Virus genome (UHGV): UHGV-0134179
DNA length: 24,963 bases
Strand: one strand, 5' to 3'
Source of the DNA: a virus
Shown in pieces: positions 7,106 through 24,963 of this stretch. The notes beneath the pieces are model-generated. The model was given only the letters and a program-made list of their open reading frames with translations, ran no database searches and had not been told where the DNA came from. Each line of letters starts with the position of its first letter. The stretch's first letter is position 1. A program made the translations under genes and the position numbers.

Positions 7106-7465
7106 ATGGGCGTGGACTGGGATTTACATCTTCTGAGTCCGCTCCATGGCGTGTTTGGCGATGAGCATGAGTACCGTCCCCGCAACGGTACTCCTTTTAC
7201 GATTAACGGTATTTTTGACCGTGGCTATGCGCAGGTTGCAGAAAATCTTGATGGTGATTCAGAAATTAACACCTCCAGCCCAATGCTTGGGGTGCGCGAT
7301 GCTGAATTTCGTCAGTTGGGTAAACCGCAACCTGCCGTATCTGACCGTGTGTTTATCAAAACGGTCGGAGGTCAGATCATCAATCAGTTATTTGTTGTGT
7401 CCAACGTCGAACCGGACAGCCATGGCGGCTCACGTCTTGTTCTCAATGTGGCGAAAACCCGATGA
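7106..7465 (+). CDS. head-tail joining protein (lambda FII-like / Mu gp36-like)
   Basis: 119 aa; GIFDRGYAQVAE...SSPMLGVRDAEFRQL...DRVFI...HGGSRLVL parallels recalled lambda FII GVFDDPENISYAGQGVRVEGSSPSLFVRTDEVRQL...GGSCHLWL. Confidence 0.6.
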   Translation: MGVDWDLHLLSPLHGVFGDEHEYRPRNGTPFTINGIFDRGYAQVAENLDGDSEINTSSPMLGVRDAEFRQLGKPQPAVSDRVFIKTVGGQIINQLFVVSNVEPDSHGGSRLVLNVAKTR

Positions 7466-8007
7466 ATGCTTCCGCAATACGACACATGGTCGTGGCCGCG
7501 CTGAAAGATAAAACGGCTGCCGCCGATCGTGTTTATTCCCCGCGTGACTGGGCAACTTCGCCGGACCTGTACCCAGCGTTGCTTGTTCAGACGCCATTTG
7601 ATCACAAAAAGGCGCAGGGGCGAAATGTCCCGGCCTTTACCTCTTTGACCACCGTTCGCATTACTGGCCGGGTTCAGGAGTACGACAGTGAAACCACTGA
7701 TGATGGCGCCATGCGCGCGGAGGTTGCGCTGGAAGAGCTCCGGGAACAGGTAGAAAGGGCGGTGATTAACAGCTACGAGTTAACCCGGAACATCCAGAAA
7801 TATGCGGAGGTCCGCTCGACGATTGATGTTGATGCGGATGGTGAAGCGCATATGGGCCAGCTGCTTATCGAAATTGATATTGAGCACTATCAGGGACCGG
7901 AAGACTTTTATCCGGTCGATACGGTGCCGCTGGCGGGGATCGACATCACCATCGACATGCCGGACGGTACGCCGCAGCCGGGCGTAAAAATAGACCTTCA
8001 GGAGTAA
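7462..8007 (+). CDS. putative neck / tail-completion protein (Mu gp37-like position)
   Basis: 181 aa; 4-nt overlap with the previous gene; position between connector and sheath genes. Confidence 0.5.
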   Translation: MNASAIRHMVVAALKDKTAAADRVYSPRDWATSPDLYPALLVQTPFDHKKAQGRNVPAFTSLTTVRITGRVQEYDSETTDDGAMRAEVALEELREQVERAVINSYELTRNIQKYAEVRSTIDVDADGEAHMGQLLIEIDIEHYQGPEDFYPVDTVPLAGIDITIDMPDGTPQPGVKIDLQE

Positions 8008-8009
8008 TC

Positions 8010-8195
8010 ATGTTTGTAAAACCGAAGGACGGGCTCAGCGTTCGCTGCCCTGTCAGGGGGGAGCCTTTGCCTAAAGATGGCGCGGAGGTACCTGATAATA
8101 CGTTCTGGCGTCGCCGCCTGAAGGATGGCGACGTCAGTCTGGTACCGGAAAAGGGCGTTAAAAACGCCGTAAAAAAAGAGGGCGTAATTAAATGA
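8010..8195 (+). CDS. small conserved protein upstream of tail sheath (DUF2635-like)
   Basis: 61 aa; GLSVRCPVRGEPLPKDGAEVPDNTFWRRRLKDGDVSLV matches my recollection of the small protein preceding sheath genes in Mu-like prophages; overlaps the sheath start by 4 nt. Confidence 0.5.
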   Translation: MFVKPKDGLSVRCPVRGEPLPKDGAEVPDNTFWRRRLKDGDVSLVPEKGVKNAVKKEGVIK

Positions 8196-9703
8196 CCGTT
8201 CCATTTTCGCGAGTTCCCGGCAATTTACGTGTGCCGCTTTTTTATGTGGAGTTTGATAACTCCATGGCCAACACGGCGACGGCTACACAACGAACGCTGT
8301 TGATTGGTCAGATGCTGGCATCAGGCTCTACACAGGAAAAAATCCCGGTAAAAGTCTCCTCTCCCAATGCGGTGGGTGAGCTCACCGGAAAAGGATCAAT
8401 GCTGCATGGCATGATGACGGCGTATCAAAAAAACGATACTGCTGCGGAGGTCTGGATCCTTCCGCTGGCTGATGATGCGGATTCGATGGCAGTGGCAACT
8501 GGCAGTATCAAGGTTGCCACACAGGCGGCAGAAACCGGCGTTATCTCTCTTTATATTGCTGGCGTTCGCGTACAACTGACCGTACTGGCGACTGACACTC
8601 CGGCTCAGATTGCCACTGCGCTGGTCGCGGCGATTACCCGCAAAACGGAACTGCCGGTGACAGCTGCTGTAAAAGCCGATGCAACGGATACCGTGACACT
8701 GACGGCCAAAAATGCCGGGTTGCTGGGCAATGGTATTGATATCAGGCTGAATTATCTCGGTGTTCAGGGTGGTGAGGTGACGCCCGCGGGCCTGACACTC
8801 ACCATCACGGGCATGACCGGCGGCGCCGGCGCGCCGGATTTTGTTGATGCCCTTGGCAACCTGCAGGATAAGACCTTTGATTTTGTCATCAACCCTTATT
8901 ATGACACCGCATCACTGGATGCCATCAGAGAATTTCTGAACGATGCAACCGGCCGCTGGGCATGGGATAAACAGCTTTATGGCCACGCATTCACCACTAC
9001 CAACGGCACTTACGCCGAGCTTGGCACCAAAGGGGAAACCCGTAATAACCAGCATGAGTCACTGCTTGGCGTGTACCGCTCACCATCACCGCGTTATATC
9101 TGGGCGGCGGCACTGACAGGGGCCGCTGCACCCAGCCTGCGTAATGACCCCGGACGCCCGCTACAAAGTCTGCCTGTTTATGGCGTGCTGGCACCGGACC
9201 TGGCGGATCGCTTTGAACTGACAGAGCGCAATAACCTGCTGTACAGCGGCATCTCCACTTACACCGTGGGTGATGACGGTACGGTGATGATTGAAAACCT
9301 GATTACCACCTACCAGAAAAACAGCTATGGCGACGAAGACGACAGTTACCTGCAGGTGGAAACGCTCTTCAGCCTGATGTTTGTCACACGATATCTCCGC
9401 ACTGCAGTGACCAGTAAATTTGGTCGCATGAAGCTGGCCGCGGATGGCACGCGTTTTGCGCCGGGGGCGGCGATTGTGACGCCAAACATCATCAGAGCCG
9501 ATCAGATCGCGGAATACCAGACGCTGGTCTTTAACGGCTACGCGCAGGACGCTGAGGCCTTCGCCAGAAACATTATCGTGGAGCAGAACAAAACAAACCC
9601 GAACCGCGTCGATGTGTTGTGGCCGGGAACGCTTATGAACCAGTTGCGCATCTTCGCGCTGCTTAACCAGTTCCGCCTGCAGGCTGAATCAACAGGAGCA
9701 TAA
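8192..9703 (+). CDS. contractile tail sheath protein (Mu gpL-like)
   Basis: 503 aa; position and size; followed by tube, chaperone and tape-measure genes in Mu order. Confidence 0.8.
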   Translation: MTVPFSRVPGNLRVPLFYVEFDNSMANTATATQRTLLIGQMLASGSTQEKIPVKVSSPNAVGELTGKGSMLHGMMTAYQKNDTAAEVWILPLADDADSMAVATGSIKVATQAAETGVISLYIAGVRVQLTVLATDTPAQIATALVAAITRKTELPVTAAVKADATDTVTLTAKNAGLLGNGIDIRLNYLGVQGGEVTPAGLTLTITGMTGGAGAPDFVDALGNLQDKTFDFVINPYYDTASLDAIREFLNDATGRWAWDKQLYGHAFTTTNGTYAELGTKGETRNNQHESLLGVYRSPSPRYIWAAALTGAAAPSLRNDPGRPLQSLPVYGVLAPDLADRFELTERNNLLYSGISTYTVGDDGTVMIENLITTYQKNSYGDEDDSYLQVETLFSLMFVTRYLRTAVTSKFGRMKLAADGTRFAPGAAIVTPNIIRADQIAEYQTLVFNGYAQDAEAFARNIIVEQNKTNPNRVDVLWPGTLMNQLRIFALLNQFRLQAESTGA

Positions 9704-9706
9704 AAC

Positions 9707-10078
9707 ATGGCTGGAGATACCACTAATCGCCTGGCAGGTACCGCTTATGTCACCGTAAACGGGGTGACAGTTATGGTGGAGGGCTCATTCAAGTATCAGA
9801 CCTCCACTGTTAACCGTACCACGCTGACAGGCATGGACGGTGTGCATGGCTACAAAGAAAAGCCGGTTGCCCCGTATATTTCTGCCCGTCTTCGCGACAG
9901 CGGCGGTACCAACGTATTGGGTTTTAACAAACAGACGAACGTCAACGTGATCGCCGAACTGGCGAACGGAAAGACTATTATCGGTCGCGCGCTATGGACG
10001 GTGAACGTTCAGGAAGTGGAAAGCGAAGATGCAGTGTTTGATGTTCGCTGGGAAGGCCGGGACGTAACGGAGAACTAA
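9707..10078 (+). CDS. tail tube protein (Mu gpM-like)
   Basis: 123 aa; immediately after the sheath gene. Confidence 0.7.
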   Translation: MAGDTTNRLAGTAYVTVNGVTVMVEGSFKYQTSTVNRTTLTGMDGVHGYKEKPVAPYISARLRDSGGTNVLGFNKQTNVNVIAELANGKTIIGRALWTVNVQEVESEDAVFDVRWEGRDVTEN

Positions 10079-10079
10079 G

Positions 10080-10358
10080 ATGGCAGAACTTGAACGCACC
10101 AAAGTCATTCCCCTCATCAAGCCTCTGGTCGATGAGGCGCAAAAAACACGCTATGAGCAACTGGAGCTGAAGGCGCCGACGCTCAGCCAGGCAGAGCAGT
10201 TCTACGAAAAGCAGGCATCGTCTACTTCACTGGCGGCGATGCGCCTGCTGATCTCGCTGGTCACGGATACGCGGGAAAGTGTGCTTCAGCCGATGGATTT
10301 TATCGACTTCCGAAAATGCGAGGAGTTTTTGCTCGGTTTTTTGACCTGGAAGCCCTGA
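10080..10358 (+). CDS. tail assembly chaperone (short form)
   Basis: 92 aa acidic protein between tube and tape-measure genes; overlapped at its 3' end by a -1 frame ORF running to the tape-measure start. Confidence 0.6.
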   Translation: MAELERTKVIPLIKPLVDEAQKTRYEQLELKAPTLSQAEQFYEKQASSTSLAAMRLLISLVTDTRESVLQPMDFIDFRKCEEFLLGFLTWKP

Positions 10359-10507
10359 CCGCCTGGCAGGAAACGGCGGCTGACGTCACATTTTATTTCC
10401 GCTGGACAGAAGACAGGGCATGGGGCATGACCTATGCCCGTCTGAAGTGGTGGGTATCGCAGGCCTCCCGTATCAATAAACTCAGGAATCCCGAACCCGA
10501 TGAGTAA
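10337..10507 (+). other. putative programmed -1 ribosomal frameshift site and extension giving a long-form chaperone (G/GT-like)
   Basis: Slippery heptamer T_TTT_TTG at 10337-10343 in the zero frame of the chaperone, 15 nt before its stop; the -1 frame stays open to 10507 and overlaps the tape-measure ATG. Confidence 0.45.
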
Positions 10508-12353
10508 TTCTTTCGACTTTGAGCTGGTGGCCAGCGACCAGGCGACGGAAGCCATTGAGCGTATCAATGAGGCTATCCGTGATCTGGAACCAAAGCTGGA
10601 TAAAACCAAAGAGGGACTCCAGTTAGGAGGGCAGGAGACCCTCGATGGACTGAACGGCTTTATTTCCCGCTTCGAAAATCTGTCCAAAAATGCCCGTGAT
10701 AATGTTCAGTACATCGGGGACATGGTACCGCCGCTGAAGATGGTCGGTGAGCTCTCCGGTAAGCTGGCATCGCTGGGGGTGGTTGGAGCGGCGGGATATG
10801 GGCTAAAACAGATTGCCTACGGTTTCCATGAGGCCTCAAGGGAAGCCTATAACCTCGATGTCGCCGCGAAAAATGCGGGTATGCGAGTGGACGATTTTTC
10901 CCGCCTGTCCGGTGCCATGCGGATACTGGGTGCTGATGGCGACAGTGCAAATTCCTCCATCGAGGGGATGGCTAAAAGCCTGAAGGAGGCCGCCAGCGGT
11001 GCCAACAGCCAGGTGCTCGGCGCATTGTCACAGATTGGCGTTCAGATCCAGAAAAACAACGATGGATCCGTTGATACGCTGAGAACGCTGGAGTCGATAG
11101 CACGCGTTTTCCCGAGTCTGCGACCGGACCAGCAGAAATCAGTTTCCGATGCCCTCGGGTTGACGCCGGAAATGCTGGCGCTGATGCGTGAAGGCGTACG
11201 GATGAAAGCATTGCTGGCTAAATCTGATGAACTTGGCCTGACGGTTGATCCGGAACTTAACCGGCAATTGTCCGAGGTTAACGGCTCCATGAATGAGCTG
11301 GGCGCTGCATGGGATGGGCTGAAAAACCGTTCGAAAAACTCTCTGTTTAAGGGATTGCTTTCCGATGGATCGGTGAAAGACGGTCTTGAAGGTGTGACCG
11401 ACTTGTTCACGAATGGCGATTTCACCGGGCTGTCGCATGCGCTGGGGTTTATCAGTAGCAAGGATGCCGGGAAGCTACGCCGCATTCAGGGTGATAAGGC
11501 GCTGTATAACACCCTTTCCCGGCGCGAGCGCGGAGCGGTGGATGCCGGCTTTATGACTGATGCCGTCCGTAAACGCTACGACGCGCAATATGGCGCCGGG
11601 GACAGAGCTGAACAACTCCGAAATGATTTGTCTGTCATCCTGCCAGCAGGTGCAGCAGCTCCACGCAGAGAAGTGAATTACAGCCAGCCATCTAACCAGG
11701 CACTAGGCCTGAGAAATAATAACCCCGGCAATCTCCGGATAGCGCCTAATGCGACCGGGGTGAATCGTGGTTTCGTCACTTATGACAACAGCAGCGACGG
11801 GCTGGCGGCAATGGCCCGGCAACTGATGTTATATGGCGATCGTGGGAATAACACGCTGAACAGCATGATCCACACTTATGCGCCACGCTCGGAAAATGAT
11901 ACGCAGTCCTATATCAATTCAGTATCGGCCGCGACAGGTATTCAACCCCAGCAGCGGGTGGATCTGCATAACCCGGAGGTGCTGAAGTCAGTCATGGCGG
12001 CCATGATTCAGCATGAGAATGGGGCGCAGCCATATTCTGAAGATGAGATACGGGCGGCAATTCAGACGGCTATCAGTGATCCGCGCTGGTCTGGTCTTCG
12101 TGACAGCCGAGTGCTCAGCCAGCAGAGAGAGAACATCCTCGTACCGCAACCGGACAAGTTTAACAGTTCCTCAATCCTGACAGCTTCCGGTAATGGGAGA
12201 GACACTGTCAGTGAAAACCTGACCCGGTCTCTCAAAGAGGCGATGGCCGATCAGAAAATGAAGCTGGAAATCACCCTGGTCAATGATAAGGGGGAGAAGA
12301 AAACCTATAACGTCGAGGATAACGGCAGAATAACAACCGCCATGAATTACTAA
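10500..12353 (+). CDS. tail tape measure protein
   Basis: 617 aa; largest ORF of the tail block; directly downstream of the frameshifted chaperone pair. Confidence 0.75.
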   Translation: MSNSFDFELVASDQATEAIERINEAIRDLEPKLDKTKEGLQLGGQETLDGLNGFISRFENLSKNARDNVQYIGDMVPPLKMVGELSGKLASLGVVGAAGYGLKQIAYGFHEASREAYNLDVAAKNAGMRVDDFSRLSGAMRILGADGDSANSSIEGMAKSLKEAASGANSQVLGALSQIGVQIQKNNDGSVDTLRTLESIARVFPSLRPDQQKSVSDALGLTPEMLALMREGVRMKALLAKSDELGLTVDPELNRQLSEVNGSMNELGAAWDGLKNRSKNSLFKGLLSDGSVKDGLEGVTDLFTNGDFTGLSHALGFISSKDAGKLRRIQGDKALYNTLSRRERGAVDAGFMTDAVRKRYDAQYGAGDRAEQLRNDLSVILPAGAAAPRREVNYSQPSNQALGLRNNNPGNLRIAPNATGVNRGFVTYDNSSDGLAAMARQLMLYGDRGNNTLNSMIHTYAPRSENDTQSYINSVSAATGIQPQQRVDLHNPEVLKSVMAAMIQHENGAQPYSEDEIRAAIQTAISDPRWSGLRDSRVLSQQRENILVPQPDKFNSSSILTASGNGRDTVSENLTRSLKEAMADQKMKLEITLVNDKGEKKTYNVEDNGRITTAMNY

Positions 12354-12399: not shown

Positions 12400-13800
12400 A
12401 TGGCAATTATCCAGGATGCAATAACTTCTCTGATGGGGGGCGGTGGTAGTGAGGACTGGTTGAGCCAGCTACGTCCCGGCTCGTTCCGGGGCGTGCCTTT
12501 TGCTGTGGTGAATGAGGAAGGCAGTCATGGCCGGCGGCAGGCGGTTCATGAATATCCATACCGTGATACCGCCTGGATTGAGGATATGGGGCGCGGGACA
12601 CGGCGATTTATTATCCGTGGCTTTATCGTCCAGAACAGTCTGGTATACGGCGGTGGCGACGTTATTTCTCAGCGCCAGTCATTGATCAATGCGTGTGAAG
12701 CTAAGGGGAGCGGTACGCTCATTCACCCCACGCTGGGGGAGATGACCGTTTCAATACCTGAGAACGGTTTAAGGCTTTCCGGCTCCGCCGACAACGGCCG
12801 TTCGTTTGAATTTACCCTGATGGTCATTGAGTCGGGGTTAAAGGTCTTTGCCGTTACCGACAGTGCCGCCGCGGGGGATACCGTTGGCACCAACTTTCTG
12901 AAGCTGGTTAGTACGACGGTTGCCAGTACCCTCGCGAGAATTAAAAGCGAGATCCGTGGTGTGTCGCAGGGGATTCAGACCATCAGGGGAACCGTGACGT
13001 TCTGGACCAATATGGTGGATAACACCATCAGTGAGGTAACAAACGTCAGTAACGTGCTGGATTCTACTTTCGGGAATAATCGTTACGGGCGTTACAGCAA
13101 GGGGACCGTAGGCGGGAGCTCTTCGGGTATTAACGGCAATCGTGATGCCGATGACTCAGAAGACCATCAGGCATTGTCTGAACAGGTTACCGCCCGGGCG
13201 GTGATGGATCGCCAGGCTGTGCTCGCTACAACGGCTGCACTGAATGAATCTGTATTGGTCGAGGAATTTGTTCAGGGCGTTGCCGATGTGATTAATCGCA
13301 TTCTGTCCAGCGCCGGTAGCGTGAGTGACAAAATTGCCGCATTTGAAAAACTGGCGGCTTCAACCAGTACCGGATACCAGCGTTCCGAAAGCAGCCAGCA
13401 ACTGGCTGGCACCATGAACACGCTGATCGTAGTGCTATGTACCGGAGCCATGACGGATGCTGCTGCAGATTACAACCCAACCAGTCGTAATGAGGCCGAA
13501 GAAATCACTCAACGCGTAGCCGGGCAACTGGATACCGCGTTACTACTGGCGGGCGACCGTGGCGATGATGATCTTTATACGGCATTGATGGGCGTGAGAA
13601 CCGCTTTTCTGAATACCATGGCTCAGACTTCAGCCGGGCTGAGTGAGTTGATGCAAATAAATACCGCGGTGCCGGTTCCTGCCCTGGTACTGGCCAACCG
13701 CCTGTATCAGGATGCCTCGCGGGCAAATGAACTGATACAGGAGGCCAGCGTACCGCATCCGGCATTTATGCCGACGACGATGAAGGTGTTGAGACAATGA
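12400..13800 (+). CDS. DNA circularization protein N-like tail protein (Mu gpN-like)
   Basis: 466 aa; N-terminal WLSQLRPGSFRGVPF matches the recalled conserved N-terminus of Mu N-family proteins. Confidence 0.75.
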   Translation: MAIIQDAITSLMGGGGSEDWLSQLRPGSFRGVPFAVVNEEGSHGRRQAVHEYPYRDTAWIEDMGRGTRRFIIRGFIVQNSLVYGGGDVISQRQSLINACEAKGSGTLIHPTLGEMTVSIPENGLRLSGSADNGRSFEFTLMVIESGLKVFAVTDSAAAGDTVGTNFLKLVSTTVASTLARIKSEIRGVSQGIQTIRGTVTFWTNMVDNTISEVTNVSNVLDSTFGNNRYGRYSKGTVGGSSSGINGNRDADDSEDHQALSEQVTARAVMDRQAVLATTAALNESVLVEEFVQGVADVINRILSSAGSVSDKIAAFEKLAASTSTGYQRSESSQQLAGTMNTLIVVLCTGAMTDAAADYNPTSRNEAEEITQRVAGQLDTALLLAGDRGDDDLYTALMGVRTAFLNTMAQTSAGLSELMQINTAVPVPALVLANRLYQDASRANELIQEASVPHPAFMPTTMKVLRQ

Positions 13801-14882
13801 GTACGGATAATGATCAGGATATTGTCTCCCTGACAGTGGGCGGAAAAATCATTGAAGGATGGGACTCTGTGCGGGTGACCCGTGGCATTGAGCGTTTTCC
13901 CTCCGATTTTGACCTGGGACTGATGGATTATTTTCCGGGAAGTGACCAGAAGCAGCTGGTAAAGGAAGGGATGTCTTGTCAGGTAAAGCTTGGTAACGAC
14001 CTGGTCGTGACGGGGTATGTTGATGACTGGTCGCCTGCTATTTCCCGTTCGCGCCATGAAGTCAGAGCCTCAGGCCGCAGTAAGTGCGCAGATCTCGTGG
14101 ATTGCTCTGCTGAATGGCCAAATAACGTCATCAATAACAGTAATGCGCTTGATATAGCCTCCCGCCTCGCATCCCATTACAACATTGGAGTAAGTACAGA
14201 CGTTGATGATCTGGTGAAAGTCCCGCAATTTTCCCTGAACTGGGGGGAATCGCCACAGGAAATACTTGATCGTGTCTCCCGCTGGTCGGCATTGCTTTAT
14301 TACGATCAGCCTGACGGTAACTTATTTCTGACCCGGGTGGGGACAAAGCGCGCGGCCAGCGGTATCGCAGAAGGGGTAAATATCGAACAGGCTTATTACC
14401 GCCGTTCGATGGCTGACCGCTTTTCTGATTACGTCGGCGTATCGATGAGCATTTCGCCGATTGCAGGATTCTCGCCTGATACGGCTTATGATTCGGTGAC
14501 GCTGGCGACGGCCCGCGATCCTGAGGCGGCCAGTATGCGTTACCGAAAACGGATCATTATTGTTGAAAGTACACTGATGGCTTCACAACAGGCTCAGCGA
14601 GCGATTGACTGGGAGATGAACCGCCGATACGGCCGTTCCCGTCAGTTAACGGTGACGATTGATTCCTGGCGCGATAAATCCGGGAAATTATGGGAGCCGA
14701 ATACGCTTATCCCGGTCAACATCCCGAGTCTGCAGCTGCCTGACACCGAAATGCTTATCGCAGAGGTGACTTATATCAGAAACAGTGACGGCACCCATGC
14801 GCGCCTTTATCTGATGCCCCCGGCGGCTTTCGCTGTCCAGCCTTATGCTTTTTACCAGCAAATACCCGGACTAAACCAATGA
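13797..14882 (+). CDS. tail/baseplate protein (Mu gpP / P2 gpD-like)
   Basis: 361 aa; 4-nt overlap with N; position before the spike gene. Confidence 0.7.
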   Translation: MSTDNDQDIVSLTVGGKIIEGWDSVRVTRGIERFPSDFDLGLMDYFPGSDQKQLVKEGMSCQVKLGNDLVVTGYVDDWSPAISRSRHEVRASGRSKCADLVDCSAEWPNNVINNSNALDIASRLASHYNIGVSTDVDDLVKVPQFSLNWGESPQEILDRVSRWSALLYYDQPDGNLFLTRVGTKRAASGIAEGVNIEQAYYRRSMADRFSDYVGVSMSISPIAGFSPDTAYDSVTLATARDPEAASMRYRKRIIIVESTLMASQQAQRAIDWEMNRRYGRSRQLTVTIDSWRDKSGKLWEPNTLIPVNIPSLQLPDTEMLIAEVTYIRNSDGTHARLYLMPPAAFAVQPYAFYQQIPGLNQ

Positions 14883-17741: not shown

Positions 17742-18527
17742 ATGAGAAAAGTTGGCAGTACAACTGACACCGCTGATGTTAATGGTGAATACACTAATGG
17801 TAATGTCGCTAATGGTATTTCACCGACAATAATTAATGCTGAGATGATGAATACCTTTCAGCGTGAGCTGGTAAACGTTGTTGAAGGCGCGGGGCTTGAG
17901 CTTGATCCTGATGATGATTCACAGGTTCATAAAGCGATTGGTGGCGGTCGCCTGCTTAATATTGTCACATTTACGAAGTCAGGGACTTACACTCCAACTA
18001 AAGGGACGAAAAGAGTGCGGGTGAAAGTTTGGGGAGCGGGGGGAGGTGGCCAGAATGCTCCAGTTAATGTGGGCGCATCTGGTGGTTGTGCTGGTGGGTT
18101 TTCGGAAGGGTTATTTAATATTTCTGATAACGAAACTATATCTGTGACGATAGGTACTGGTGGCAGTGCTGTTGCTGCTGGTGTCGCGTCTAAAGGCGGG
18201 AACGGTGGTGATACAAGGTTCGGGAGTTTAATCTCAGCTACTGGAGGGAGTGGTGGCGGGTCTACAGTTCCTGCTGGAGGTATCGGAAGTGGCGGGAACA
18301 TTTTAAATATTACTGGCGGAATATCTCAAGGTGGTCTGTATTATGGTTCTGATGCTTTTATTGGCGGGGCTGGAGGATCTGCATTTTCATCAACGGGTGG
18401 CAATGGCCACTTCGGTAGTTCTGGCGATGATGGCGGTTTCCCCGGCTCAGGTGGTGCCGGGGGGAATGGTAACTATTCATCAGGAAAAGGAGCGAATGGT
18501 TTAGTTTACCTTGAAGAGTTTTCCTGA
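17742..18527 (+). CDS. tail fibre protein with glycine-rich C-terminal domain
   Basis: 261 aa; N-terminal ADVNGEYTNGNVANGISPTIINAEMMNTFQRELVNVVEG resembles conserved fibre N-termini; the C-terminal ~170 aa are dominated by GG/GGxGG repeats. Confidence 0.65.
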   Translation: MRKVGSTTDTADVNGEYTNGNVANGISPTIINAEMMNTFQRELVNVVEGAGLELDPDDDSQVHKAIGGGRLLNIVTFTKSGTYTPTKGTKRVRVKVWGAGGGGQNAPVNVGASGGCAGGFSEGLFNISDNETISVTIGTGGSAVAAGVASKGGNGGDTRFGSLISATGGSGGGSTVPAGGIGSGGNILNITGGISQGGLYYGSDAFIGGAGGSAFSSTGGNGHFGSSGDDGGFPGSGGAGGNGNYSSGKGANGLVYLEEFS

Positions 18528-19597
18528 TTATTTTTGCTTTGAGCGTCCGCCCTTATTTTTGCTCTAATTTTAATTAGTGGCTTGTCTATTAATATTACAC
18601 AAACGATCCCAAGTGCAATTGATATTGGGTAGCCTAATAAAAAGATAGATAAACCACGATTTTCACCACCAATAGCAAGCCATGCTAGAAATCCGCCAAA
18701 ATATTGACAAAGAAAAATTGGATAGGCCAGATCACCAAACCACTTGAGTATTTTCTCAAGATGTATGTTTGTCTTTATTTTTAATAATGCCAGGGTTGTA
18801 AATAATGCTATTGCATTATTGGTGTAGTAAAGTATTATGTTGTACTGACCTAATGCATTAATTGTATATAAATACCAATTGGTAATAAAAATCCCAATGC
18901 AGATAAATGTTATTAAAAAAGCCTTGTGTGGAGAAAGATACATAGCTTTGAACTTTCTATGGGCAAAATAACCCAGAGAACCCATGCTAAAAGGAAGTGT
19001 TGCAGCAAGGAATGGGAAATACGCCATATCAAAAGAATGGTGAACTACATATACGTAAGCATGATAAAGCAGTGAAAGCAGAATCGACGTAATGGCTGTA
19101 AATTTATTTCTGGCTATGAAAAGCCACAATAAAAAATAACATGTTATCTCAACACCCACTGACCATGATGATGTGACTATTCTGAATCTATTACCATCAA
19201 TAGCAAAGTGATAAATGGATGAAAAGGCACCGAATGGATTTGCTACAGCATTATCAGAAAGGAAAGCCCAGGGGAAGATTAAGAGGTTTCCTAATAAATC
19301 TCCAGGCAAGAAATTGCCTGTCCAGTTTGAATGGAATTCCTTTGCGGATGGAATTAATTTTATAATAAGAAAGCCCATGACGAGAAAAAATATATATGCC
19401 GGGAATAACCTCAGTATTCTATTTTTCCAAAACATAGAGAAGTTGAACTTGTATGTTTCATGCAAAATGTATGTTATTAAAAAGCCACTAATAACATAGA
19501 AGCAATTCACTGCAAAGTTGCCAAGTGCAGGTATGCGAGCCGTTAAGTGAAAAGCAATGACGCACGATGCCAAAAAAAACCTTATTAGGCCAAGCAT
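18506..19597 (-). CDS. acyltransferase family 3 membrane protein (O-antigen acetylase-like lysogenic-conversion candidate)
   Basis: 363 aa, AT-rich, highly hydrophobic with many predicted TM segments. N-terminus LGLIRFFLASCVIAFH aligns with the AT3 GLRG...H motif and is followed by FYVISGFLI. Opposite strand to the fibre genes. Confidence 0.8.
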   Translation of the reverse strand: MLGLIRFFLASCVIAFHLTARIPALGNFAVNCFYVISGFLITYILHETYKFNFSMFWKNRILRLFPAYIFFLVMGFLIIKLIPSAKEFHSNWTGNFLPGDLLGNLLIFPWAFLSDNAVANPFGAFSSIYHFAIDGNRFRIVTSSWSVGVEITCYFLLWLFIARNKFTAITSILLSLLYHAYVYVVHHSFDMAYFPFLAATLPFSMGSLGYFAHRKFKAMYLSPHKAFLITFICIGIFITNWYLYTINALGQYNIILYYTNNAIALFTTLALLKIKTNIHLEKILKWFGDLAYPIFLCQYFGGFLAWLAIGGENRGLSIFLLGYPISIALGIVCVILIDKPLIKIRAKIRADAQSKNNQENSSR

Positions 19598-19860: not shown

Positions 19861-19961
19861 TCTCTTATTTAACCGTTTAAACACGTATGGCGATGTTAGC
19901 CCTGAAGGGGCGGGGCGTCAATCTTAATTGCTTCATTGAAAAGATGAAGACAGGAACAGGT

Positions 19962-21977
19962 ATGGACAAAAGATATAATACCGGCAATCCAAGACCCTCA
20001 AATAGCATGAAGGATCTGAATGATAATGCCCTGGCGTACGATGATTTCCTGAACAGCGAAAGCGATACTTTTATAGATCGTTTTGGTAACGCCCAGGATA
20101 CGATGATTGGGGCTACTAAAAAAATGGCAGCTGCTACCGACGCTGTTATTGATGAAGCCCGCCAAAACCTGATCCCTCTGAGCAAGCAATACATGACGCT
20201 TGCTGATGCACAGGCGGATATAGCGAATATCCCTGAAGGGAGCACAACGTATTACCGCAGCCCTGATGATAGTGCGCTTGCTATTGAGGTTATCAACAAT
20301 AGCGGTGCGCTGTCAGCGACGGGCAGAGTAATGCCATCTCAGGGGTATGTAGACAGGGTGATAAACACCTCAACAGCCAACGAAAATATTGTAATCACTC
20401 TTGACGCTGACGCCAGCCCCGTAGAGGTTCGAGATGATTTTGGCGGGGTGAATATTCCGGGGGTTCCTGCTCCAGTACAGGATATTTTGCAACAGGTGCA
20501 GAAGAGCGCCGCCCCGGCCATCCTTCGTCTGACTGACGCTGAGAATGCCGCATACACCTCTGTTGACGAATATGGAGACATTTATGCACCGGAGATGCCG
20601 TCCAGTATTCAACGTTTATTGCTGGCGATGAAAAAGGATGTTGATAAGCTTAGAAAGCAAGGGATGATTCTGGATGCCAGAGATTGCGGGCTCAACACGA
20701 AAACCGGTGAAGACTCACAGCGTGCAATTCAGCGCGGATATAACTGGTTGTCCGGGAATGGCGGCGGCCATCTTTACGTCCCGGCTGGCTATTTTAAAAT
20801 GGCGATCCCTGTTGTTCCTCGTTCCGGCGTCGCCTTACATGGTGCCGGCATCGGTGCGACTAATTTTCTTCCTTACGGTTATTTGTCTGCATTTGAGTAT
20901 GTAGGGGACGAAACATACATCGAAAACCTTCAGTTTACCGACTTCACCATTGATGGCGAAAATCAGCAACTTCATCCGACAAGAGGTTATATCCCTAACA
21001 TTAAGGGAATTCTCCTCCAGTATTACCGGAATACTGTTTTTGACCGCATCAAAATCCAGAATACCGGTGCAACAGGGTTAGGGACGGACATGCCGGATAA
21101 TGTGTCTATTATGCGCGTGGTCACTGAAAACTGCGGCCGTCTCGGCGTTGTCGGTGATTTAGGGGCTTCCGGTATTGGGCTGGGAACCGGCTTCCTTAAC
21201 AGTGAGCCTATCTTTGTTTATCAGACAGTGAATAAACACAATAAGAACTACGGTATATTTTACGAACCACAGCGCGGTGTGGGTGTTGCCCGTGACACCA
21301 TCGCAGTTGGAAATGTGTGTGAGTACAATCATGCCGGAATGGCCGATTGTGGAATAGATGGCCTGATCGCTATTGGCAATAACCTGCGTTTCAATGAATA
21401 TGGGTTTAAAGGCTCACCGGGTACAAACGGTGCGGGAAACCCCGGAAACCGTGGCATTCTGAAGGACAACCATATCAACGGTAATACTAAACATGGTATT
21501 TATCTTTATACGGATAAAGGATTGGCTATAGAGGGTGAATATAATTACTCCGGCAATCGTATAGCTGATAACGAACTCGACGGCATACATGTTGAATATG
21601 TTCATACGTCTGCGAAATTACTGAACAGTAAGTTTGCGGATAATGAAATTTATCGTAATGGTCGTCATGGCTTTAATTTTGTCAGCGGCAATCTGGTCAA
21701 TGTGGACATTATGAATAACCGACTCTGGAACAACGGACGTACAGAAGTGGGGGATGCCATAGCTGGTGCAGCAGATATGATGAAATGTGGAATTACTGGC
21801 AATAAAATCCGCGACACGCAGGATGCGGCTACCCAGCAGTATCCGGTTAATCTCTCTGGGGCACTGACCGACATGGATATTTCGTTCAACCATTGTGTCG
21901 GAAATGCCCGAAATACTTTAAATCTGACCGGTGCACAAACTCGTGTAACCACACTTAACAATCCCGGGATCGCATAA
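19962..21977 (+). CDS. tailspike protein with parallel beta-helix (polysaccharide depolymerase-like) domain
   Basis: Start chosen at ATG 19962 (AGGA RBS 6 nt upstream); in-frame alternatives at 19887 and 19944. Repeated beta-helix-type units rich in N/G/D (NHINGNTKHGIYLY, GNRIADNELDGIHVEY, ADNEIYRNGRHGFNF, MNNRLWNNGRTEVG). Confidence 0.75.
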   Translation: MDKRYNTGNPRPSNSMKDLNDNALAYDDFLNSESDTFIDRFGNAQDTMIGATKKMAAATDAVIDEARQNLIPLSKQYMTLADAQADIANIPEGSTTYYRSPDDSALAIEVINNSGALSATGRVMPSQGYVDRVINTSTANENIVITLDADASPVEVRDDFGGVNIPGVPAPVQDILQQVQKSAAPAILRLTDAENAAYTSVDEYGDIYAPEMPSSIQRLLLAMKKDVDKLRKQGMILDARDCGLNTKTGEDSQRAIQRGYNWLSGNGGGHLYVPAGYFKMAIPVVPRSGVALHGAGIGATNFLPYGYLSAFEYVGDETYIENLQFTDFTIDGENQQLHPTRGYIPNIKGILLQYYRNTVFDRIKIQNTGATGLGTDMPDNVSIMRVVTENCGRLGVVGDLGASGIGLGTGFLNSEPIFVYQTVNKHNKNYGIFYEPQRGVGVARDTIAVGNVCEYNHAGMADCGIDGLIAIGNNLRFNEYGFKGSPGTNGAGNPGNRGILKDNHINGNTKHGIYLYTDKGLAIEGEYNYSGNRIADNELDGIHVEYVHTSAKLLNSKFADNEIYRNGRHGFNFVSGNLVNVDIMNNRLWNNGRTEVGDAIAGAADMMKCGITGNKIRDTQDAATQQYPVNLSGALTDMDISFNHCVGNARNTLNLTGAQTRVTTLNNPGIA

Positions 21978-24658: not shown

Positions 24659-24840
24659 TGGAATCCTCTTTGAGATCTACAGTGTTGGGCTGATTCTACA
24701 AGCTTATCTAAAAGGCAGTGGTCAATAAGCAATCGATCTTTTATGTACTATAGCGCAGAAAGAGTGTTTTTCATACGGGAAATTTGGCTTTGTTGAATAA
24801 ATCAGCTTCAGGACGAGTGACTCTGTAGCTGACCGGGTTT

Positions 24841-24963
24841 TCAGGCAATACGCACGCTTTCTGGCATACCAGCCTTCGTTATTTTATTCAGCGCTCGTAC
24901 CAGGGCCATAGCCTCCGCAACCTGACCATCGTAGTCACGCAGCGTCAGTGAACCCCCGAACAG
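24841..24963 (-). CDS. hypothetical protein, C-terminal 40 codons only (5' end beyond the window)
   Basis: Minus-strand open frame from the window edge to TGA (plus coords 24841-24843), translating ...LFGGSLTLRDYDGQVAEAMALVRALNKITKAGMPESVRIA; GC-rich like the phage backbone. Confidence 0.3.
   Translation of the reverse strand: MFGGSLTLRDYDGQVAEAMALVRALNKITKAGMPESVRIA

What the first reader, a model, noticed from the sequence alone, without database searches (positions are those of the whole stretch)
10316..10507. Likely programmed -1 frameshift (T_TTT_TTG) producing a long-form tail assembly chaperone
The 92-aa chaperone ORF is overlapped in the -1 frame by an ORF that runs to the tape-measure ATG. 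The slippery heptamer TTTTTTG (10337-10343) sits 15 nt before the zero-frame stop, the conserved G/GT-type arrangement in tailed phages.
Basis: partly seen in the sequence, partly recalled or inferred. Interest (0 to 1): 0.4.

Follow-up and report, generated by a model that had tools for sequence, protein, structure and literature searches.

The report
P2-type tail chaperone frameshift site
A prophage tail gene carries the same slippery sequence (TTTTTTG) that phage P2 uses to make a short and a long version of its tail assembly chaperone; it is a well-supported but ordinary example of a known phage trick that public annotations of this phage lineage have missed.

Summary
ORF1 (10080-10358, 92 aa) is a tail assembly chaperone: Pfam PF10109, between tube and tape-measure genes, with a TAC-like predicted fold. 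Its only in-frame X_XXY_YYZ heptamer, T_TTT_TTG (10337-10343), lies 12 nt before the TGA. The -1 frame stays open to TAA 10505-10507, which overlaps the tape-measure ATG (ATGAGTAA).

In 54 distinct relatives (72-99.8% nt identity), third-position variability switches from frame 0 to frame -1 after the ORF1 stop. GTTTTTTGACCTGG is invariant. 29 of the 54 have no -1-frame start codon upstream of the heptamer, so the tail can only be reached by shifting frame.

The -1 tail is a divergent P2 E' domain (hhalign 95.8%, E 6.9e-9). P2 uses the same GGT TTT TTG codons, the same 91-92/142 aa products and the same stop/start overlap.

The best explanation is therefore a P2 E/E+E'-type programmed -1 ribosomal frameshift giving a 142-aa long chaperone. 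Notably, it sits in a Mu-like tail module, whereas Mu itself uses a -2 shift.

No downstream RNA structure is conserved. A conserved SD-like GAGG 13 nt upstream is a candidate stimulator; this is inferred, not shown.

This is a new, unannotated member of a known kind, of low-to-moderate interest. No experiment exists for this phage.

The parts
10080..10358 (+). Short tail assembly chaperone gene (gpE-like, 92 aa, 10.7 kDa), read in the zero frame
10320..10325 (+). SD-like GAGGAG (core GAGG 10320-10323), 13 nt upstream of the heptamer; candidate frameshift stimulator (inferred)
   Evidence: GAGG is invariant in 54 distinct relatives. GAG 10320 is the only one of the 88 ORF1 codons other than Met and Trp, outside the heptamer/overlap zone, whose third position never varies, although GAA and GAG are used about equally elsewhere (215 vs 203). 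The same GAGG at the same spacing is present in BZS1, L012 and L013. Sharma et al. 2014 (PMC4066793) list GAGG/GGAG/AGGA 6-17 nt upstream as experimentally stimulatory.
10337..10343 (+). Slippery heptamer T_TTT_TTG (P-site TTT Phe, A-site TTG Leu in frame 0)
   Evidence: In frame, and the only such heptamer in ORF1. Present at the same position in all 94 sequences examined (the window plus 93 related loci), as TTTTTTG or TTTTTTA. 10336-10349 is invariant in 54 distinct sequences, although TTG makes up only 4% of Leu codons and TTC 37% of Phe codons elsewhere in ORF1. The codons GGT TTT TTG are identical to those of the verified P2 E/E+E' site.
10343..10507 (+). -1 frame extension (E'-like domain, 54 aa plus TAA stop). 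Fused to residues 1-88 of ORF1 it gives a 142-aa, 16.7-kDa long form
   Evidence: Third-position variability peaks in frame -1 (0.82 bits against 0.36 and 0.18). The synonymous fraction is 0.39 in frame -1 against 0.11 and 0.05 in the other frames. There are no stop variants in frame -1, against 8 and 10 in the others. phrog_10636, E 1.8e-20. hhalign against P2 E': 95.8%, E 6.9e-9, and 6 of 14 homologues hit PF06528. AF2 pLDDT 91.8, three helices.
10500..12353 (+). Tape measure protein gene; its ATG overlaps the stop of the -1 ORF (ATGAGTAA)
   Evidence: phrog_2276 tape measure, E 4.8e-142. The same 8-nt ATGAGTAA overlap is seen between P2 E' and T.

Best explanation
This is a P2 E/E+E'-type programmed -1 ribosomal frameshift in the tail assembly chaperone gene of a temperate E. 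coli prophage. The prophage has a lambda-like head module and a Mu-like contractile tail module.

Most ribosomes translate ORF1 to TGA 10356 and make a 92-aa chaperone.

A minority shift frame. With tRNA-Phe on TTT (10338-40) in the P site and tRNA-Leu on TTG (10341-43) in the A site, these ribosomes slip one base back onto TTT TTT (10337-42). They resume at GAC (10343) and read 54 more codons to TAA 10505. The product is a 142-aa protein: the chaperone domain plus an E'-like three-helix domain (junction ...CEEFLLGFL|DLEALTAW...).

By analogy with lambda G/GT and P2 E/E+E', the common N-domain coats the tape-measure protein and the rare C-domain recruits the tube protein. The fixed short:long ratio is what tail assembly needs.

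What is shown here:
- the in-frame heptamer;
- coding in frame -1 only downstream of it;
- the absence of an independent start;
- homology of both halves to P2 E and E'.

What is inferred:
- that the shift is ribosomal and tandem;
- its efficiency;
- the role of the conserved upstream GAGG as an anti-SD-pairing stimulator;
- the division of labour of the two domains.
For: Geometry.

Family and context:
- PF10109 for ORF1. The neighbours are sheath, tube, TMP, DNA_circ_N and gpP/gp44, then gp45, gp46, J and gp48.
- The ORF1 model has a TAC fold.

Comparative evidence:
- All 94 sequences examined (the window plus 93 related loci) keep the in-frame TTTTTTG/A and a -1 ORF of about 50 codons. That ORF ends at or just before the TMP start wherever a TMP start could be called.
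- In 54 distinct sequences the third-position entropy peak moves from frame 0 (1.03 bits) to frame -1 (0.82 bits) after the ORF1 stop. The same holds in the 29 sequences that have no -1-frame start upstream of the heptamer (0.75 against 0.08 and 0.19).
- Synonymous fraction is 0.39 in frame -1 against 0.11 and 0.05, with zero stop variants.
- 10336-10349 is invariant, against a background in which every other degenerate third position in the first 80 codons varies, except GAG 10320.

Homology to the verified case:
- The P2 record annotates a -1 frameshift at the G of GGT TTT TTG, with E 91 aa and E+E' 142 aa, and E' overlapping T by ATGAGTAA.
- BLASTP across the junction gives E 4e-4.
- P2 E+E' hits phrog_166 and phrog_10636, as ours does.
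- The tail profile against P2 E' by hhalign gives 95.8%, E 6.9e-9, and 6 of 14 tail homologues hit PF06528.
- The tail folds confidently (pLDDT 91.8).

No terminator or promoter lies in the gap.
Against: - There are no protein or reporter data for this phage or its close relatives.
- RefSeq/PGAP and the phiNP and BZS1 records annotate only the 92-aa ORF.
- The window's own tail does not reach Pfam PF06528.
- In an E. coli reporter, U_UUU_UUG alone gave only 0.12% frameshifting, and 0.25-0.77% with heterologous stimulators (Sharma 2014 supplement). The heptamer by itself is therefore weak and context must help.
- No conserved downstream structure was found: MFE z-score 0.13, alifold -6.2 kcal/mol with no covariation, and no Rfam hit.
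- The GAGG element lies in codons for conserved Cys-Glu-(Glu/Asp/Val). Only one silent position supports it, and it is absent from a distant relative (L098).
Confidence: 0.88

Rival explanations
1. Transcriptional slippage. RNA polymerase adds one extra U in the U6 run, so a fraction of mRNAs carry U7 and encode the fusion in a single frame. The junction would then be ...GFF|DLEAL..., with Phe instead of Leu at residue 88.
For: The site is a homopolymer of six T, and a +1-nt insertion gives exactly the -1 frame. The heptamer alone is a poor ribosomal shifter in E. coli reporters. A database assembly with T7 reads as a continuous 134-aa fusion, which shows that the product is viable as an ORF.
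Against: From general knowledge of bacterial transcriptional slippage (reviewed in PMC5009743), productive slippage usually needs runs of about 8-9 or more A/T; six is short. What is conserved is the full X_XXY_YYZ register, including the G/A at position 7 and the T supplied by the preceding NGT codon. That fits tandem tRNA re-pairing. In P2 the event is annotated and cited as a translational frameshift. The T7 assembly also carries a second indel nearby, which suggests sequencing error.
Confidence: 0.07
2. Independent small gene. The -1 ORF is translated on its own from ATG 10316 (63 aa) or from an internal start, and no fusion protein is made.
For: The window has an ATG at 10316 in the -1 frame. 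Gene callers have called homologous small ORFs of 39-82 aa in many genomes.
Against: 29 of 54 distinct relatives have a -1-frame stop between 10316 and the heptamer and no ATG/GTG/TTG upstream of it. In 5 of them the frame opens exactly at the heptamer. The first conserved downstream start is ATG 10427, yet the frame -1 codon signature is already present across 10359-10426 in those 29 sequences. There is no SD sequence before ATG 10316. GAGGAG lies downstream of that ATG.
Confidence: 0.03
3. Chance arrangement. The 141-nt stretch between the chaperone and tape-measure genes is a non-coding spacer, and the heptamer is incidental.
For: Public annotations leave the stretch empty. In-frame XXXYYYZ heptamers occur about once per 330 codons in this window.
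Against: Codon-phase and synonymous/non-synonymous signatures show purifying selection in frame -1. The peptide is conserved down to 47% identity (BZS1) and beyond. It is homologous to P2 E'. The predicted domain folds confidently. No terminator or promoter is present.
Confidence: 0.01

Closest known systems
Bacteriophage P2 gpE / gpE+E' programmed -1 frameshift (Christie et al. 2002, J Bacteriol 184:6522; GenBank AF063097)
   Same: [quoted passage not shown]
- Products of 91-92 aa and 142 aa.
- The -1 ORF stop overlaps the tape-measure ATG as ATGAGTAA, and both tape-measure proteins start with M-S-N.
- The N-part is in PF10109/phrog_166. The tail is related to E' (phrog_10636; hhalign 95.8%).
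- No downstream hairpin: reported absent in P2 (PMC3091744) and absent here.
   Different: - Only about 25% identity across the junction.
- The window's tail does not itself reach Pfam PF06528.
- 12 nt lie between heptamer and stop here, against 18 nt in P2.
- The surrounding tail module is Mu-like (DUF2635, DNA circulation protein, gp44-gp48), not P2-like FETUD.
- The upstream SD-like element differs: GAGG at 13 nt here, AGGTGG at 4 nt in P2.
Bacteriophage lambda gpG / gpGT (Levin et al. 1993; Xu, Hendrix & Duda 2004, 2013, 2014)
   Same: Same logic and gene position: two overlapping ORFs between the major tail/tube gene and the tape-measure gene, a -1 shift near the end of the first ORF, and a long form made at a low fixed ratio (30:1 in lambda, per PMC5009743). 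A TAC-like fold is predicted.
   Different: The slippery sequence differs (G_GGA_AAG in lambda; from general knowledge). There is no detectable sequence similarity. Lambda has a non-contractile tail.
Bacteriophage Mu gp41 / gp41-frameshift product (verified -2 frameshift; GenBank AF083977 Mu_41/Mu_56)
   Same: The flanking genes are the same (Mup38-like DUF2635, sheath L, tube M, TMP, N/gp43, P/gp44 and so on), and the chaperone gene sits in the same position.
   Different: Mu shifts by -2, into the +1 frame. Here the +1 frame closes after 8 codons. Mu gp41 is 144 aa and belongs to PF23746/phrog_508, which ORF1 does not match.

Membership tests
Conserved tail-assembly-chaperone frameshift of long-tailed dsDNA phages (Xu, Hendrix & Duda 2004) | Two overlapping ORFs located between the major tail/tube gene and the tape-measure gene | tested here: met
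   Tube 9707-10078, ORF1 10080-10358, -1 ORF to 10507, TMP 10500-12353.
Conserved tail-assembly-chaperone frameshift of long-tailed dsDNA phages (Xu, Hendrix & Duda 2004) | A slippery sequence in the correct register within the overlap, conserved among relatives | tested here: met
   T_TTT_TTG is in frame at 10337-10343. It is kept in all 94 sequences examined (the window plus 93 related loci) and invariant in 54 distinct sequences.
Conserved tail-assembly-chaperone frameshift of long-tailed dsDNA phages (Xu, Hendrix & Duda 2004) | The downstream ORF is protein-coding but has no initiation signal of its own | tested here: met
   The codon-phase switch and the synonymous excess are in frame -1. 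29 of 54 relatives lack any upstream -1-frame start.
Conserved tail-assembly-chaperone frameshift of long-tailed dsDNA phages (Xu, Hendrix & Duda 2004) | The fusion protein is detected and required for tail assembly | not testable with these tools
   Needs immunoblotting or mass spectrometry, plus genetics.
P2 gpE / gpE+E' family | The N-terminal chaperone domain belongs to PF10109 (Phage_TAC_7) | tested here: met
   29.9 bits against a cut-off of 25, E 5.6e-7. P2 E+E' scores 47.8 bits in the same family.
P2 gpE / gpE+E' family | The frameshift-encoded C-terminal domain belongs to PF06528 (Phage_P2_GpE) | tested here: inconclusive
   The window's tail gives no PF06528 hit even at E<=10. However, 6 of 14 phmmer homologues of the tail do hit it (best E 9.3e-6). 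The tail profile aligns to P2 E' at 95.8% probability, E 6.9e-9, and P2 E' hits phrog_10636. It is best described as a divergent relative.
P2 gpE / gpE+E' family | -1 shift at TTTTTTG, with the E' stop overlapping the tape-measure start | tested here: met
   Same GGT TTT TTG codons and same ATGAGTAA overlap.
Mu gp41-type chaperone with -2 frameshift | Chaperone in PF23746 (Gp41_Mu), and an extension ORF in the +1/-2 frame | tested here: not met
   ORF1 has no PF23746 hit, whereas Mu gp41 scores 119.5 bits. The +1 frame closes after 8 codons.
Spiral-type tail assembly chaperone fold (HK97 gp10, YqbN, rbstp2171) | The predicted structure resembles solved TACs | tested here: met
SD-stimulated -1 frameshift sites (dnaX, IS911 type) | An SD-like sequence 6-17 nt upstream of the motif that is conserved beyond coding needs and raises frameshifting | tested here: inconclusive
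   GAGG sits at 10320-10323, 13 nt upstream, and is invariant, including one silent position. It meets the sequence and spacing criteria of Sharma 2014. Stimulation is untested, and the element is absent in the distant relative L098.

The most novel reading that the evidence does not exclude
The enterobacterial clade to which this prophage belongs compensates for an intrinsically weak U_UUU_UUG heptamer (about 0.1% on its own in E. coli reporters) with a conserved internal Shine-Dalgarno-like GAGG 13 nt upstream, rather than with any 3' RNA structure. On this reading it would be a dnaX/IS911-style SD-stimulated frameshift inside a phage tail chaperone gene. The whole P2-type E/E'/T-start cassette would also have been exchanged as a unit into a Mu-type tail module, whose prototype uses a -2 shift.
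Probability: 0.3. Interest if true: 0.35.

Novelty: new member of a known kind. Interest (0 to 1): 0.25.

Why it matters
For annotation: the long chaperone form (142 aa) is missing from RefSeq/PGAP annotation of this prophage and from the GenBank records of phages phiNP and BZS1. As a result, 141 nt between the chaperone and tape-measure genes are left looking non-coding. The prophage is present in at least 19 complete E. coli genomes, and the same chaperone/-1 ORF arrangement was found in the Citrobacter, Salmonella, Kluyvera, Edwardsiella, Raoultella, Serratia and Xenorhabdus genome loci examined. Adding a ribosomal_slippage join at 10343 would correct an essential tail gene.

For biology: it shows that the type of frameshift (P2-like -1 against Mu-like -2) travels with the chaperone gene, not with the rest of the Mu-like tail module. 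It also offers a clean natural test case for how a weak U_UUU_UUG motif reaches useful efficiency without a 3' structure. It does not open a new question.

Tried and rejected
1. **Downstream stimulatory structure.** The single-sequence fold of 10344-10423 has a z-score of 0.13. RNAalifold on 24 diverse relatives gave -6.2 kcal/mol, mostly G-U pairs, one compensatory change, and one 'helix' that pairs the heptamer itself. Rfam found nothing at E<=1. Rejected.
2. **+1/-2 shift as in Mu.** The +1 frame closes after 8 codons here and in most relatives (2-18 codons in 93 of the 94 sequences, 95 in L013). Rejected.
3. **The second T-run, GAG TTT TTG (10325-10331).** It is not X_XXY_YYZ (the X is G) and it is variable in relatives (TAT CTG and others). 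Rejected as the shift site.
4. **Direct Pfam or NCBIfam assignment of the -1 tail.** No significant hit. Homology to E' had to be shown through PHROGs, a phmmer search of 1.8 billion representatives and hhalign.
5. **Fold search of the 54-aa tail model against the PDB.** Nothing meaningful (best E 5.7).
6. **PDB sequence search with the fusion profile.** Only a spurious hit, E 0.0015, to a ribosomal protein.
7. **Structure prediction of the fusion itself.** The two halves were modelled separately.
8. **Christie et al. 2002 (PMC135442).** Could not be read. P2 facts come from the GenBank annotation and from PMC3091744 and PMC5009743.
9. **Fetching more distant E'-like loci.** The alignment was too diverse for pattern search, and single-protein scans gave one usable locus, L098.
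10. **The Raoultella 134-aa 'natural fusion'.** It has T7 plus a second nearby indel, so it was treated as an assembly error rather than as evidence.

Full report
**1. Observation**

- ORF1 is 10080-10358 (92 aa).
- In its reading frame the 3' end reads ... GAG GAG TTT TTG CTC GGT TTT TTG ACC TGG AAG CCC TGA. TTTTTTG at 10337-10343 is therefore a canonical X_XXY_YYZ heptamer (T_TTT_TTG), and it is the only one in ORF1.
- The ORF listed as 10316-10507 lies in the -1 frame, which is open from 10157. It ends at TAA 10505-10507, overlapping the ATG (10500) of the next gene as ATGAGTAA.
- The +1 frame closes after 8 codons.
- Twelve nucleotides (four codons) separate the heptamer from the TGA.

In-frame XXXYYYZ heptamers are not rare in this window: 19 in 6237 codons of plus-strand genes. 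Only this one sits at the very end of its gene and opens a -1 run that passes the zero-frame stop (56 codons). A -1 run that long is seen from only 4% of codon positions.

**2. What the genes are**

The window is a prophage. It is about 99.4% identical over this region to 13 complete E. coli chromosomes and matches 19 in all. No close isolated phage exists; the nearest are Citrobacter phage phiNP (72-75% nt identity) and Serratia phage BZS1 (68%).

The head genes are lambda-like: an S49 protease, a gpD-like decoration protein and a gpE-like capsid protein.

The tail genes are Mu-like:
- DUF2635/Mup38;
- sheath, 8192-9703;
- tube, 9707-10078;
- ORF1;
- tape-measure protein, 10500-12353;
- DNA-circulation protein, 12400-13800;
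- gpP/gp44 hub, 13797-14882;
- then gp45, gp46, J and gp48.

**3. Is the -1 frame really translated, and how is it reached?**

I collected 93 related loci in addition to the window itself (94 sequences), from annotated genomes, GTDB genomes and IMG/VR. Every one keeps an in-frame TTTTTTG (or TTTTTTA) at the same protein position (the invariant F87-L88). Every one also keeps a -1 ORF of about 50 codons, which ends at or just before the tape-measure start wherever that start could be called.

Ninety of the sequences share the window's exact layout. They collapse to 54 distinct sequences, 72-99.8% identical to the window. In these:

- *Codon phase.* Within ORF1 upstream of the heptamer, column entropy peaks at frame 0 third positions (1.03 bits against 0.31 and 0.17). 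Downstream of the ORF1 stop it peaks at frame -1 third positions (0.82 against 0.36 and 0.18).
- *Synonymous changes.* Downstream of the stop, 39% of codon variants are synonymous in frame -1, against 11% and 5% in the other frames. No variant creates a stop in frame -1, while 8 and 10 do in the others.
- *No independent start.* In 29 of the 54 there is no ATG/GTG/TTG in the -1 frame upstream of the heptamer, because a stop lies at 10319 or 10334. In five, the frame opens exactly at the heptamer. In those 29 the frame -1 signature is already present between 10359 and 10426, before the first conserved in-frame ATG at 10427.
- *An invariant core.* 10336-10349 (GT TTT TTG ACC TGG) never varies, and the preceding codon is always NGT. 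This holds although TTG is only 4% of the other Leu codons and TTC 37% of the other Phe codons in ORF1.

The tail is therefore coding, and ribosomes can only reach it by changing frame between 10337 and 10358. This rules out chance and independent initiation.

The peptide (DLEALTAWQETAADVTFYFRWTEDRAWGMTYARLKWWVSQASRINK...) matches phrog_10636 at E 1.8e-20. It is predicted with high confidence to form a small three-helix domain (pLDDT 91.8).

**4. Relation to P2, lambda and Mu**

*P2.* The GenBank record (AF063097) annotates gpE (91 aa) and gpE+E' (142 aa, joined CDS, '-1 frameshift'), with the shift at the G of GGT TTT TTG. E' overlaps gene T by ATGAGTAA. The experimental basis is Christie et al. 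2002, as cited in PMC3091744.

The present locus has:
- the same three codons;
- products of 92 and 142 aa;
- the same 8-nt stop/start overlap;
- a tape-measure protein that also begins M-S-N.

Sequence similarity is low but real:
- BLASTP across the junction gives E 4e-4.
- P2 E+E' hits both phrog_166 and phrog_10636.
- A phmmer search of 1.8 billion representative proteins with the 54-aa tail found 16 proteins, 13 of them small ORFs of 39-82 aa. Six of the 14 aligned sequences hit Pfam PF06528, 'Phage P2 GpE'.
- The profile of these sequences aligns to P2 E' with 95.8% probability, E 6.9e-9.

The window's own tail does not reach PF06528, so it is a divergent relative.

*Mu.* By contrast, Mu, whose tail module otherwise matches this one, has a verified -2 frameshift (AF083977 annotation; PMC5009743). 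Its gp41 belongs to PF23746/phrog_508, which ORF1 does not match. The chaperone and frameshift cassette here is therefore P2-type inside a Mu-type tail module.

*A distant relative.* L098 carries a tandem-duplicated chaperone domain, an in-frame T_TTT_TTC and an E'-like -1 ORF. The T-rich site is thus a feature of the wider family.

**5. Mechanism**

The best-supported model is tandem -1 ribosomal slippage. tRNA-Phe (P site, UUU 10338-40) and tRNA-Leu (A site, UUG 10341-43) re-pair to UUU UUU (10337-42), and decoding resumes at GAC 10343. This gives ...CEEFLLGFL-DLEALTAW..., a protein of 142 aa and 16.7 kDa, alongside the 92-aa, 10.7-kDa form.

No conserved 3' stimulator exists: MFE z-score 0.13, a weak alifold consensus with no covariation, and no Rfam hit. 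The same is reported for P2.

This is notable because, in an E. coli reporter, UUUUUUG alone gave only 0.118% frameshifting, and 0.25-0.77% with IS911 or IS3 stimulators (Sharma et al. 2014 supplement). P2-type sites, however, are said to shift 2-3 times more than lambda's 1:30 (PMC5009743).

One candidate for the missing stimulus is an internal SD-like GAGG(AG) at 10320-10325, 13 nt upstream of the heptamer.
- GAGG is invariant in all 54 sequences.
- It is present at the same spacing in BZS1, L012 and L013.
- Of the 88 codons in ORF1 other than Met and Trp, only six have an invariant third position. Five lie in the heptamer/overlap zone and the sixth is this GAG, although GAA and GAG are used about equally elsewhere.
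- The sequence and spacing fall within those shown to be stimulatory in E. coli.

This idea rests on one silent site, and it does not extend to L098. It is an inference.

The functional roles follow lambda G/GT work (PMC5009743) and were not tested here. In that model the N-domain coats the tape measure, the E'-like domain recruits the tube protein, and the ratio is fixed by frameshift efficiency.

**6. Rivals**

- *Transcriptional slippage at T6.* It would give the same frame change but Phe instead of Leu at residue 88. It is disfavoured by the short run and by conservation of the full heptamer register, but not excluded (about 7%).
- *Independent initiation.* Contradicted by the comparative data (about 3%).
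- *Non-coding spacer.* Contradicted by the comparative data (about 1%).
- *The Raoultella T7 assembly.* It reads as a fused 134-aa protein but carries a second indel and is probably a homopolymer error.

**7. Novelty and verdict**

The phenomenon is textbook (Levin 1993; Christie 2002; Xu 2004).

What is new is limited:
- The frameshift is not annotated in this lineage (RefSeq/PGAP, phiNP, BZS1).
- It is not mentioned in the two papers on related phages that I could search.
- The cassette is P2-type in a Mu-type module.
- An upstream SD-like element may assist a weak heptamer.

Verdict:
- It is a new member of a known kind.
- Interest is 0.25.
- Confidence in a programmed -1 frameshift producing a 142-aa long chaperone is about 0.88.
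- The remaining uncertainty is the lack of any direct protein evidence and the question of ribosomal against transcriptional slippage.

Noticed in passing
window 8171-8177 (in gene 8010-8195): There is an in-frame A_AAA_AAA heptamer 16 nt before the stop of the DUF2635/Mup38-like gene. The -1 frame runs only 6 codons and stops at 8189-8191, just before the sheath ATG at 8192. It is probably incidental, but it is a strong slippery motif.
   Followed up: no
window 10500-12353, residues ~389-530: The C-terminal part of the tape-measure protein matches PHROG families labelled endolysin and tail injection transglycosylase (phrog_873 E 2.4e-42, phrog_7182 E 4.6e-15). This suggests an embedded peptidoglycan-hydrolase-like domain.
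   Followed up: no
window 18506-19597 (- strand): An Acyl_transf_3 family gene lies on the opposite strand, between a glycine-rich tail-fibre gene (17742-18527) and a beta-helix tailspike-like gene (19887-21977). It may be an O-antigen acetyltransferase, that is a lysogenic-conversion cargo gene.
   Followed up: no
window 24785-24963: The last ~180 nt match the IS903 transposase at 87-88% identity (hits in P7, HK022 and SJ46), so the window ends inside an IS element.
   Followed up: no
L096 1755-1765 (Raoultella ornithinolytica GCA_901420735.1): This assembly has seven T instead of six at the slip site, so the chaperone and the E'-like tail read as one 134-aa ORF (P0001). A second indel near the 3' end garbles the last ~10 residues. 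Likely homopolymer assembly errors.
   Followed up: partly
L098 668-1345 (IMGVR_UViG_3300031250_000031): This distant, high-GC relative has a chaperone gene containing two tandem TAC domains. An in-frame T_TTT_TTC lies 4 nt before its stop, followed by an E'-like -1 ORF. This fits phrog_166 being a 201-position profile that ORF1 matches at 104-195 and P2 gpE at 15-94.
   Followed up: partly
window 7106-7465 and 7146-7511: Two ORFs of more than 118 aa overlap almost completely in different frames on the + strand. RefSeq annotates only the first (head-tail joining protein) in the near-identical E. coli prophage. The second is probably spurious.
   Followed up: no
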